A stretch of DNA of 19,591 bases from a virus (Duplodnaviria; Heunggongvirae; Uroviricota; Caudoviricetes). Each line of letters starts with the position of its first letter. The stretch's first letter is position 1. The stretch is from the IMG/VR virus record IMGVR_UViG_2703718871_000002; one strand, given 5' to 3'. The position numbers and the translations under genes were made by a program. Of the stretch, positions 11,649 through 11,689 are shown piece by piece. Below the pieces are notes generated by a model. It had not been told where the DNA came from. It saw only the letters and a program-made list of their open reading frames with translations, and did not search any database.

Positions 11649-11689
11649 TTTGACATCCTCCACATTCTTCAGGCGTGAAGGATGTCAAA
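11649..11689. repeat. 15-bp inverted repeat with 11-bp spacer in the cI-methylase intergenic region
   Basis: TTTGACATCCTCCAC (11649-11663) and GTGAAGGATGTCAAA (11675-11689) are reverse complements with one mismatch (a G-U pair in the minus-strand RNA). No flanking U-tract on either strand. Confidence 0.6.

What the first reader, a model, noticed from the sequence alone, without database searches (positions are those of the whole stretch)
11649..11689. Long near-perfect inverted repeat at the cI-methylase junction
A 15-bp inverted repeat (TTTGACATCCTCCAC / GTGAAGGATGTCAAA, 11-bp spacer) fills much of the 94-bp gap between the cI stop and the methylase RBS. It has no U-tract on either strand, so it is not a simple intrinsic terminator. 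Each arm contains TTGACA. Possible roles: an RNase III-type processing or attenuation site separating cI from restriction-modification expression, an operator for an unidentified regulator, or a promoter-bearing palindrome giving the methylase cI-independent transcription.
Basis: seen in the sequence. Interest (0 to 1): 0.5.

Follow-up and report, generated by a model that had tools for sequence, protein, structure and literature searches.

The report
Transposon-end palindrome at cI–methylase seam
The inverted repeat between the phage repressor gene and the restriction-modification genes is real, but it is most likely a worn copy of a 40-base palindrome derived from the end of a widespread insertion-sequence family, marking where the restriction genes were spliced in, not a purpose-built switch.

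Summary
In detail: arms 11649-11663 and 11675-11689 pair at 14/15, and nothing comparable arises by chance. The window is a Stx2a prophage (P13374/TL-2011c/PA2 type) with cI, a PstI/BsuBI-like methylase and an endonuclease in tandem on the minus strand.

The repeat is not specific to this junction. A covariance model built from 84 copies in non-E. coli genomes hits it at 40 bits (E about 7e-10). The family is a ~40-nt palindrome, TTGACATCCTCC-(covarying inner stem, TTYA loop)-GGAGGATGTCAA, found between unrelated genes in bacteria and archaea. Its inner hairpin plus the AGGATGTCAA tail matches the right end of IS200/IS605-family TnpB elements, the published "RE-like tetraloop".

The repeat sits on a seam. 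An 84%-identical plasmid cassette (resolvase tail, methylase, endonuclease) matches 9181-11649 and stops at the palindrome's edge. A second prophage breaks at the same base.

Best reading: a mobile-DNA relic and recombination seam, transcribed inside a cI-methylase-endonuclease mRNA as a stable hairpin that does not terminate. The promoter and operator readings are not supported. An incidental effect on RNA processing or stability is not excluded. How the perfect palindromes arise is unexplained.

The parts
11649..11663 (.). Left arm of the palindrome. The family core TTGACATCCTCC is 11650-11661.
   Evidence: exact 12/12 match to the family arm; model R2.
11664..11674 (+). Decayed inner stem and TTCA tetraloop (ATTC TTCA GG-C). 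One base is deleted relative to sister phages, which read GGGC. TTCA on the + strand means the + strand is the right-end top-strand orientation.
   Evidence: variants; loop orientation in TnpB-adjacent right ends; published RE-like tetraloop.
11675..11689 (.). Right arm. It ends in AGGATGTCAA, the conserved 3' tail of the TnpB-element right end, which finishes with TCAA.
   Evidence: alignment (TCAA is the most frequently detected right-end cleavage motif).
11609..11649 (-). Remnant of the last ~12 codons of a resolvase gene (…KHVGIIMPRKED*). It carries the methylase Shine-Dalgarno sequence (11615-11620) and is truncated at the palindrome edge.
9181..11649 (-). Imported restriction-modification cassette: resolvase tail, methylase 10139-11608 and endonuclease 9189-10142. 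It is one continuous 84.1% match to plasmid pG5A4Y413.
   Evidence: Pfam Eco57I and BsuBI_PstI_RE domains.
11703..12416 (-). cI repressor (HTH_3 + Peptidase_S24). Its stop codon lies 13 nt from the palindrome.
9149..9170 (-). Intrinsic terminator (8-bp GC-rich stem followed by TTTTCTTTG) just after the endonuclease gene and outside the cassette homology. It is the likely end of the cI-methylase-endonuclease transcript.

Best explanation
The repeat is a decayed copy of a ~40-nt palindrome family with the consensus TTGACATCCTCC CC-NNNN-TTYA-NNNN-GG GGAGGATGTCAA. The family is built on the right-end hairpin (the "RE-like tetraloop") and the AGGATGTCAA tail of IS200/IS605-family TnpB (IS1341-type) insertion sequences.

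In this Stx2a prophage it lies 13 nt after the cI stop, exactly where a foreign cassette (resolvase tail, PstI-like methylase, endonuclease) is joined to the phage. On the minus strand the junction reads …GGATGTCAA|A, which is the position where right ends of this family terminate.

I read it as a relic of mobile DNA and a recombination seam or fragile site, not as an element selected to regulate the restriction-modification genes.

Shown: the identity, the family membership, the seam and the absence of promoter or terminator features.

Inferred: in a lysogen the repeat is transcribed from PRM within one cI-methylase-endonuclease mRNA. It folds into a 16-bp hairpin with no U-tract, so RNA polymerase reads through to the terminator at 9149-9170. 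Any effect on mRNA decay or processing is a by-product.
For: Family membership
- Model R2, built from 84 palindromes in non-E. coli genomes, hits 11648-11691 at 40.2 bits, E about 7e-10. It is the only significant hit in the window.
- The genes flanking these copies share no recurrent Pfam family and occur in every relative orientation.
- The inner stem covaries: 94.9% of cells are paired, with 126 double-sided changes against 38.6 in shuffles (0 of 500 shuffles reach the observed value).

Link to TnpB right ends
- The hairpin plus GGGGAGGATGTCAA is the right end of TnpB elements. Of 129 sites of this type in viral contigs, 78 have a TnpB-like ORF ending just upstream on the same strand.
- An intact TnpB at L116:2227-3435 has its stop codon inside the hairpin loop. 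A full palindrome 3 kb away in the same contig carries the identical inner hairpin.
- L167 shows the same pairing of a right end and a nearby full palindrome.
- The hairpin was published as the RE-like tetraloop of IS1341-type tnpB 3' RNAs, HgcC RNAs and PATEs (PMC4615843). Weak Rfam hits to HgcC and sot0042 fit this.

Seam
- Homology to the plasmid cassette covers 9181-11649 and stops at the palindrome edge.
- In prophage L005, window 9506-11648 is replaced by 160 nt of unrelated DNA, and homology resumes at 11649.
- In one E. coli chromosome of 5426, a copy fills the junction of a yeaV-yeaX deletion.
- No promoter or terminator is called in 11609-11702.
- The restriction-modification system (M.EcoGIII, CTGCAG) is reported active in strains carrying this type of Stx prophage (PMC6602927). 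The hairpin therefore does not block its expression.
Against: - The window copy scores only 13.2 bits (E = 0.18) against the model built from TnpB-adjacent right ends. The link to right ends therefore runs through better-preserved relatives: L006 at 31 bits, L002 at 20.9 and L129 at 16.9.
- There is no tnpA or tnpB in the window.
- The left arm TTGACATCCT is not part of a normal right end or left end. How perfect palindromes arise from right ends is unexplained.
- No filled-site/empty-site pair was found.
- The arms are invariant in all phage variants while the centre varies. That is also what selection for an RNA stem would produce.
- Co-transcription with cI is inferred from gene layout, not measured.
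Confidence: 0.65

Rival explanations
1. Whatever its origin, the hairpin has been co-opted as an RNA element in the cI-methylase-endonuclease transcript. It could act as a barrier to 3'-to-5' exonucleases or as an RNase III-type site. Either would uncouple the stability of the upstream cI message from the downstream genes and set their ratio.
For: - The fold is stable and non-random in the cI sense: -26.4 kcal/mol, z = -5.4, with 16 contiguous pairs extended to about 22 by flanking pairs.
- The single arm mismatch is G.U in the cI-sense RNA but C.A in the opposite sense.
- The arms are unchanged in all phage variants, while the centre carries an indel and a substitution.
- It lies 13 nt after the cI stop, and several E. 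coli copies also sit within a few nt of a stop codon.
Against: - Family copies occur in convergent, divergent and tandem gene arrangements, in both orientations, next to unrelated genes. No general RNA role tied to the upstream gene is indicated.
- Invariant arms are a property of the whole family and need no phage-specific selection.
- The phage sequences are 99-100% identical, so conservation here is uninformative.
- The plasmid cassette works without it.
Confidence: 0.2
2. The repeat is still an active DNA-level site: a hairpin-forming substrate for an IS200/IS605 TnpA-type enzyme, a landing site for related insertion sequences and group II introns, and a hotspot for exchanging accessory genes downstream of cI.
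For: - Three independent breakpoints fall at a palindrome edge.
- The central spacer is inverted in L005 relative to the window.
- Group II intron 5' ends (GTGCGCCC…) abut GGATGT or GGATGTCA inside the right arm in L008, L106 and L127.
- A TnpB element lies 12 nt from a copy in L002.
Against: - The window copy has lost most of the inner stem, and it lacks the GAAT sequence that lies 5' of the hairpin foot in genuine right ends.
- The copy is stable across about 100 phage records and 143 E. coli genomes.
- No enzyme was tested.
Confidence: 0.1
3. It is a protein-binding operator, or a promoter that gives the methylase transcription independent of cI.
For: Dyad symmetry, and a perfect -35 hexamer TTGACA in each arm.
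Against: - No acceptable -10 hexamer lies 16-18 nt from either TTGACA, and the scan finds no promoter in the gap.
- The arm centres are 26 bp apart, which is unusual for a dimeric helix-turn-helix site.
- The arm motif is absent from the OR and OL regions.
- No controller (C) protein gene is present.
- The homologous plasmid cassette lacks the repeat.
- The same sequence recurs in more than 100 unrelated contexts.
Confidence: 0.04

Closest known systems
RE-like tetraloop / right end (RE) of IS200/IS605-family IS1341-type tnpB elements, i.e. the 3' end of the sotRNA or omega-RNA region (Gomes-Filho et al. 2015, PMC4615843)
   Same: An 8-bp covarying stem with a UUCA or UUUA loop, followed by AGGATGTCAA ending in TCAA. 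The published motif is reported in both archaea and bacteria, including intergenic copies without a transposase gene.
   Different: - The window copy has no adjacent tnpB, and its inner stem has decayed.
- The GGAAT sequence 5' of the hairpin is replaced by an arm complementary to the 3' tail, which makes a perfect 40-nt palindrome.
- It scores only 13 bits against the model of genuine right ends.
PATEs (palindrome-associated transposable elements) and MITE-like derivatives of IS200/IS605
   Same: Short derivatives that lack a transposase gene, carry the IS-end hairpin and are scattered in intergenic DNA.
   Different: PATEs are described as a left-end part fused to a right-end part. Here there is one hairpin with symmetric arms and no recognisable left-end sequence. 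For comparison, the left ends of L116 and L002 look like GGGAAACCCC…GGGGAGGAACGG.
REP/BIME and REPIN elements with their RAYT transposases
   Same: Hairpin-forming intergenic repeats related to Y1 HUH transposase substrates. They are also known targets for other insertion sequences.
   Different: REP sequences are lineage-specific and present in high copy number. This palindrome keeps the same 12-nt arms across phyla and is rare in E. coli: 261 places in 240 of 5426 genomes, most of them in this prophage.
Lambda immunity-region accessory genes (rexAB downstream of cI, transcribed from PRM and ended by a terminator)
   Same: Accessory defence genes sit directly downstream of cI on the same strand, followed by an intrinsic terminator.
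   Different: The cargo here is a PstI/BsuBI-type restriction-modification pair with a resolvase remnant. The junction carries an IS-derived palindrome that lambda lacks. This comparison rests on my own knowledge of lambda.

Membership tests
Pan-prokaryotic 40-nt palindrome family (defined here) | Significant score against a covariance model built from independent members | tested here: met
   Model R2 (84 copies, none from E. coli or the window) hits 11648-11691 at 40.2 bits, E about 7e-10 (minus strand) and 38.3 bits (plus strand). The next hit in the window scores 12.6 bits.
Pan-prokaryotic 40-nt palindrome family (defined here) | Invariant outer arms TTGACATCCTCC / GGAGGATGTCAA | tested here: met
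   12/12 in the left arm and 11/12 in the right arm.
Pan-prokaryotic 40-nt palindrome family (defined here) | Paired inner stem of 6-8 bp closing a 4-nt TTYA/TRAA loop | tested here: inconclusive
   The TTCA loop is present. The inner stem is only partly pairable (CCAC ATTC / GG-C GTGA), with a 1-nt deletion relative to sister phages.
IS200/IS605 (IS1341-type TnpB) right end | Hairpin followed by a ~10-nt tail ending in the right-end cleavage motif TCAA | tested here: met
   AGGATGTCAA at 11679-11688 is identical to the tail in 72 of 72 TnpB-adjacent right ends. TCAA is the most frequently detected right-end cleavage motif (PMC9956272).
IS200/IS605 (IS1341-type TnpB) right end | GGAAT sequence immediately 5' of the hairpin foot, and a tnpB gene ending at or in the hairpin | tested here: not met
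   The window has ACATCCT in that position and no tnpB. The right-end model R1 gives only 13.2 bits, E = 0.18.
IS200/IS605 (IS1341-type TnpB) right end | Binding and cleavage by the cognate TnpA on single-stranded DNA | not testable with these tools
   Needs biochemistry.
PATE (fused left end + right end) | A recognisable left-end segment 5' of the right-end hairpin | tested here: not met
   The left arm is the complement of the right-end tail. It does not resemble the left-end sequences seen in L116 and L002.
Intrinsic (Rho-independent) terminator | GC-rich stem-loop followed directly by a U-tract | tested here: not met
   The stem is present but no T run follows on either strand. The scan does not call it, although it does call the true terminator at 9149-9170.
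Sigma-70 promoter | A -35 and a -10 hexamer separated by 16-18 nt | tested here: not met
   TTGACA is present, but the hexamers 16-18 nt downstream are AATGTG, ATGTGG and TGTGGA. No site is reported in 11609-11702.
Phage cI/Cro operator | Sequence similarity to the OR and OL operators of the same phage | tested here: not met
   No other match to the arm with 2 or fewer mismatches in the OR (12417-12510) or OL (about 9040-9140) regions. The OR repeats are GTAATGAAAT and GTAATGATAT (repeat D11).
Restriction-modification controller operator (C-box) or methylase autoregulation site | The site travels with the restriction-modification genes; a C protein or an N-terminal HTH on the methylase is present | tested here: not met
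   The 84%-identical plasmid cassette lacks the repeat. The methylase shows only an Eco57I domain, and there is no C gene.
Integron attC site | Core sites RYYYAAC … GTTRRRY | tested here: not met
   The arms end in TTGAC/GTCAA, so there is no GTTRRRY (read directly from the sequence).
Any Rfam family | Score at or above the gathering threshold | tested here: not met
   There are no hits at the gathering threshold on the repeat or on well-preserved copies. The only matches are sub-threshold, to HgcC and sot0042, on L031.
RNase III processing site | Cleavage of the duplex RNA by RNase III in vivo or in vitro | not testable with these tools
   Only the fold is available: 16 bp, extendable to about 22 bp with internal loops.

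The most novel reading that the evidence does not exclude
The perfect 40-nt palindromes may be a distinct and so far undescribed kind of minimal element, made from the right end of IS200/IS605 TnpB elements. In this reading they have a TnpA-type cleavage position (TCAA|) at the 3' end of both strands. They spread or arise anew across bacteria and archaea. They also act as seams where accessory cassettes (here a restriction-modification system behind a phage repressor) are joined or deleted, and as landing pads for group II introns and related insertion sequences.
Probability: 0.3. Interest if true: 0.65.

Novelty: new member of a known kind. Interest (0 to 1): 0.4.

Why it matters
For the phage, the result removes a tempting but unsupported regulatory story. 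It dates and delimits the acquisition of the M.EcoGIII/R.EcoGIII system of the O104:H4-type Stx2a phages to the block 9181-11649, which still carries the tail of a plasmid-type resolvase gene.

It implies that this system, which is reported to alter the expression of about 1,900 host genes (Fang et al. 2012, as cited in PMC6602927), is most simply expressed as a passenger of the repressor transcript.

More generally, a very short transposon-end palindrome recurs, with the same 12-nt arms, at the junctions between modules in phages, plasmids and chromosomes. If these palindromes are made or cut by IS200/IS605 transposases, they would be a concrete mechanism for mosaic joints and for the gain of accessory genes. 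That can be tested with oligonucleotides and purified TnpA.

Tried and rejected
- Rfam: gathering-threshold searches of the window and of 18 well-preserved loci, plus E-value searches around the repeat, gave no family.
- Neighbour-gene association: all-against-all BLAST and a Pfam scan of 135 flanking ORFs showed no recurrent partner. That rejects the idea that the palindrome belongs to a defence, toxin-antitoxin or restriction-modification gene family.
- Cassette-end idea: I tested whether full and half copies 2-8 kb apart bound a mobile cassette. The genes between them are housekeeping genes such as mutL, miaA, dnaK/dnaJ and gdh, so this was rejected.
- Second copy in the window: none at the far end of the cassette or anywhere else.
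- IS66 end: in L003 the IS66 element starts about 90 nt away from the copy, so the palindrome is not an IS66 end.
- attC, C-box, cI operator, promoter and terminator readings were each rejected on their defining features (see the membership tests).
- Empty-site search: among all held loci and among IncK/IncI plasmids, nothing usable turned up.
- The 160-nt filler in L005 is not an insertion sequence. It occurs in only 6 genomes, and the weakest of those matches (87.7% identity) lies in a Rha-family regulator gene.
- Literature search for the arm sequence returned only unrelated primer lists.
- Searches on group II intron target classes and on EcI5 did not identify a class known to home into this palindrome.
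- The right-end covariance model R1 by itself does not assign the window copy significantly.

Full report
**1. Context**

The window is 99.8-99.9% identical to Stx2a-converting phages of the P13374 / TL-2011c / PA2 / phi191 type. Three genes run in tandem on the minus strand:
- cI, 11703-12416 (HTH_3 + Peptidase_S24);
- a 489-aa Eco57I-domain methylase, 10139-11608;
- a 317-aa BsuBI/PstI-family endonuclease, 9189-10142.

This is the M.EcoGIII/R.EcoGIII system (CTGCAG). Published methylome work reports it as active in strains that carry this type of Stx prophage (PMC6602927). A clear intrinsic terminator follows the endonuclease gene at 9149-9170 on the minus strand.

**2. The observation**

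The repeat is exactly as described: arms at 11649-11663 and 11675-11689, 14/15 complementary, with an 11-nt spacer, inside the 94-bp cI-methylase gap. No T-tract follows on either strand.

It is the only repeat of that quality in the window, and none appeared in 60 simulated sequences. The RNA fold is -26.4 kcal/mol in the cI sense (z = -5.4) and -21.0 in the other sense. In the cI-sense RNA the one mismatch becomes a G.U pair.

**3. The repeat is not unique to this junction**

A 201-nt query against plasmids gave two separate kinds of hit.

- PstI-like cassettes on small GES-5 plasmids matched the start of the methylase gene and 41 bp upstream, stopping at the repeat.
- The 40-nt repeat alone, loop included, matched unrelated E. 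coli plasmids at about 90% identity.

In complete E. coli genomes there are 261 places in 240 of 5426 genomes, 106 of them on plasmids. The contexts are unrelated to one another:
- after a phage-plasmid tail gene, next to a TnpB element (L002);
- about 2 nt after the trbC stop on an IncK plasmid (L003);
- after ccdB (L008);
- supplying the stop codon of a plasmid gene (L007);
- at a chromosomal deletion junction (L006).

**4. A pan-prokaryotic family**

I scanned one genome per species with GACATCCTCCNC-N(8-16)-GNGNAGGATGT. Hits came from Proteobacteria, Firmicutes, Actinobacteria, Cyanobacteria, Chlamydiae, Desulfobacteria and several archaeal lineages. Eighty-eight of them are palindromic on both strands.

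The consensus is TT-GACATCCTCC-CC-NNNN-(TTTA/TTCA/TAAA/TGAA)-NNNN-GG-GGAGGATGTC-AA.

On a 92-sequence alignment the proposed hairpin is 94.9% paired. It shows 126 double-sided changes against 38.6 in shuffles (0 of 500 shuffles reach that value), and it far exceeds every slid control. The inner pairs 19/38, 21/36 and 22/35 switch among C-G, U-A, G-C and A-U.

The copies are intergenic in every gene arrangement. A Pfam scan of 135 flanking ORFs found no recurrent family; the neighbours include dnaK, prmA, anmK and many others.

A covariance model built only from the 84 non-E. coli copies hits the window repeat at 40.2 bits, E about 7e-10, and nothing else in the window. The window repeat is therefore a member. 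It is a worn one: the inner stem is largely lost, and one base is deleted compared with sister phages that read GGGC.

**5. What the family derives from**

Some loci also carry half copies: the inner hairpin plus GGGGAGGATGTCAA, preceded by GGAATCC in place of the complementary arm. These are right ends (RE) of IS200/IS605-family TnpB elements.

- In L116 an intact 402-aa TnpB (HTH_OrfB_IS605, OrfB_IS605 and Cas12f1-like TNB domains) ends …GGA ATC CCC CGG CTT TAG. Its stop codon sits in the hairpin loop, and the element ends …GGGGAGGATGTCAA.
- The left end of the same element has the same hairpin but different flanks.
- A full palindrome 3 kb away carries the identical inner hairpin, including its bulged T.

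In viral contigs the right-end-type pattern again hit the 120-locus limit. Of 129 sites, 78 have a TnpB-like ORF ending within -60 to +300 nt upstream on the same strand. The commonest distance places the ORF end inside the pattern match.

By contrast, only one of 18 full palindromes in viral contigs has a TnpB ORF directly beside it. That copy lies 71 nt beyond the element's right end and shares its inner stem. One further copy has a TnpB-like ORF about 2.4 kb away.

In TnpB-sense orientation the loop is TTTA or TTCA in 67 of 72 right ends. T.G wobble pairs recur on the strand that reads TTTA or TTCA (my reading of the alignments; one search counts 22 U.G pairs at one inner position).

This hairpin has been described. 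Gomes-Filho et al. 2015 named it the "RE-like tetraloop": an 8-bp stem with a UUCA or UUUA loop, at the 3' end of IS1341-type tnpB sense-overlapping RNAs, in HgcC RNAs and in PATE-derived intergenic RNAs (PMC4615843). The weak Rfam matches of a well-preserved copy to HgcC and to the 3' end of sot0042 fit this. TCAA is reported as the most frequently detected right-end cleavage motif of TnpB elements (PMC9956272).

The model built from genuine right ends scores the window copy only weakly (13.2 bits, E = 0.18). It scores the better-preserved E. coli relatives higher: L006 at 31.1 bits, L002 at 20.9 and the sister phage L129 at 16.9. The link from the window to right ends therefore runs through these intermediates.

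**6. The seam**

Window 9181-11649 is one continuous 84.1% match (2471 nt) to plasmid pG5A4Y413. On that plasmid a complete resolvase gene sits 9 bp upstream of the methylase gene.

The match therefore includes the last ~12 codons of the resolvase gene. The window reads …KHVGIIMPRKED* and the plasmid reads …LYKHVGVITPRQ*. It ends at the first base outside the palindrome core. On the minus strand the junction reads …GGATGTCAA|A, the position where right ends of this family stop.

This also explains the 31-codon ORF that one phage annotation places in the gap. That ORF is part resolvase remnant and part palindrome, not a gene.

The terminator at 9149-9170 lies outside the cassette. A simple history is: cI, palindrome, terminator, with the cassette later joined at the palindrome edge.

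Two more breakpoints fall at palindrome edges.
- In prophage L005, window 9506-11648 is replaced by 160 nt of unrelated DNA. Homology resumes at 11649, and the central spacer is inverted.
- In one E. coli chromosome of 5426, native sequence runs to within 2-3 nt of a copy that replaces yeaV, yeaW and part of yeaX.

**7. How it most likely works here**

- Shown: there are no promoter or terminator features in the gap, no operator-like relatives in OR or OL, the homologous cassette has no such repeat, and the methylase is active in strains carrying the prophage.
- Inferred: the methylase and endonuclease genes are transcribed with cI from PRM, as accessory genes downstream of cI are in lambda. 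The palindrome is carried along as a stable hairpin that does not stop transcription. The message ends at the terminator after the endonuclease gene.

I rate "relic and seam without a selected regulatory role" at 0.65. An acquired RNA-stability or processing role cannot be excluded (0.2). Continuing activity as a DNA site gets 0.1, and the operator or promoter reading 0.04.

**8. What stays unexplained**

The origin of the left arm is unknown. Neither the right end nor the left end contains TTGACATCCT, yet the arm is an exact complement of the right-end tail in many lineages.

Possible routes are fold-back priming at a cut right end, template switching across the hairpin, or true mobilisation of a one-hairpin unit. 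None was testable, and no filled/empty pair was found. No paper in the held library prints the arm sequence in this context. I cannot say whether the perfect-palindrome form has been described elsewhere.

**9. Verdict**

The feature is a new, decayed member of a known kind, an IS200/IS605 right-end hairpin derivative. Its position is informative: it marks the acquisition seam of the Stx-phage restriction-modification system. Interest is moderate (0.4). The higher-value lead is the palindrome family itself.

Noticed in passing
window 11626-11641: A second, small hairpin lies between the palindrome and the methylase Shine-Dalgarno sequence (11615-11620). On the cI-sense strand it reads TGGCAT-CATC-ATGCCA. 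The 84%-identical plasmid cassette keeps it through two compensatory pair changes (CGGCGT-CATC-ACGCCG). It lies in the resolvase C-terminal codons and might matter for methylase translation or resolvase-methylase coupling.
   Followed up: partly
window 11611-11706 (minus strand): The 31-codon ORF annotated in phage phi349 fills the whole gap. It starts at a TTG overlapping the cI stop and ends 2 nt before the methylase ATG. Its tail, KHVGIIMPR, is the remnant of a resolvase C-terminus, so it is very probably not a gene.
   Followed up: yes
L131:2416-2640 (E. coli 2015C-3121 prophage), equivalent to window position 11669: One prophage variant has a T-to-G change in the loop. This creates CTGCAG, the recognition site of the adjacent restriction-modification system, inside the palindrome.
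   Followed up: no
L008:2538 onward, L106:4279 onward, L127:281-476 (minus strand): Sequences resembling group II intron 5' ends (GTGCGCCCAGCATGGGCGC…GGTGAAAG…) start immediately after GGATGT or GGATGTCA inside the palindrome's right arm, in three unrelated replicons. Only L127 reaches an Rfam group II intron threshold. The palindrome may be a homing site for an intron lineage.
   Followed up: partly
L006:2499-2543 (E. coli GF4-3 chromosome): A near-perfect 46-nt copy sits at the junction of a deletion that removes yeaV, yeaW and part of yeaX. The arrangement is found in 1 of 5426 complete E. coli genomes, so the event looks recent.
   Followed up: partly
L116:3413-3456; alignment A4: In many TnpB elements of this family the tnpB reading frame runs into the right-end hairpin, and its stop codon lies in the loop (CTT TAG). 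This may be why loops containing TAG, TGA or TAA dominate.
   Followed up: partly
L005:2501-2546: The central 12 nt of the palindrome are inverted relative to the window and to L002: GCCCCAAAGGAC against GTCCTTCAGGGC read as its reverse complement. That is as expected from recombination or template switching between the arms.
   Followed up: no
window 8489-8576 and 8601-8676 (minus strand); 19162-19352; 18834-19082: Rfam hits at the gathering threshold: C4 antisense RNA and isrK just beyond the PL side of the immunity region, STnc100, and three tRNA genes near the stx region.
   Followed up: no
window 12439-12489: The OR region contains the direct repeats GTAATGAAAT and GTAATGATAT, and a PR-like promoter (TTGACA-17-AATGAT at 12459-12487). 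These are the likely operators, and they are unrelated to the palindrome arms.
   Followed up: partly
L026, L036, L046 (an uncultured Oxalobacter sp. genome): Three copies in one uncultured Oxalobacter genome share the CCAC…GTGG sub-variant with the E. coli plasmid and phage copies, differing at only 2-3 positions. This hints at horizontal spread of this sub-type.
   Followed up: no
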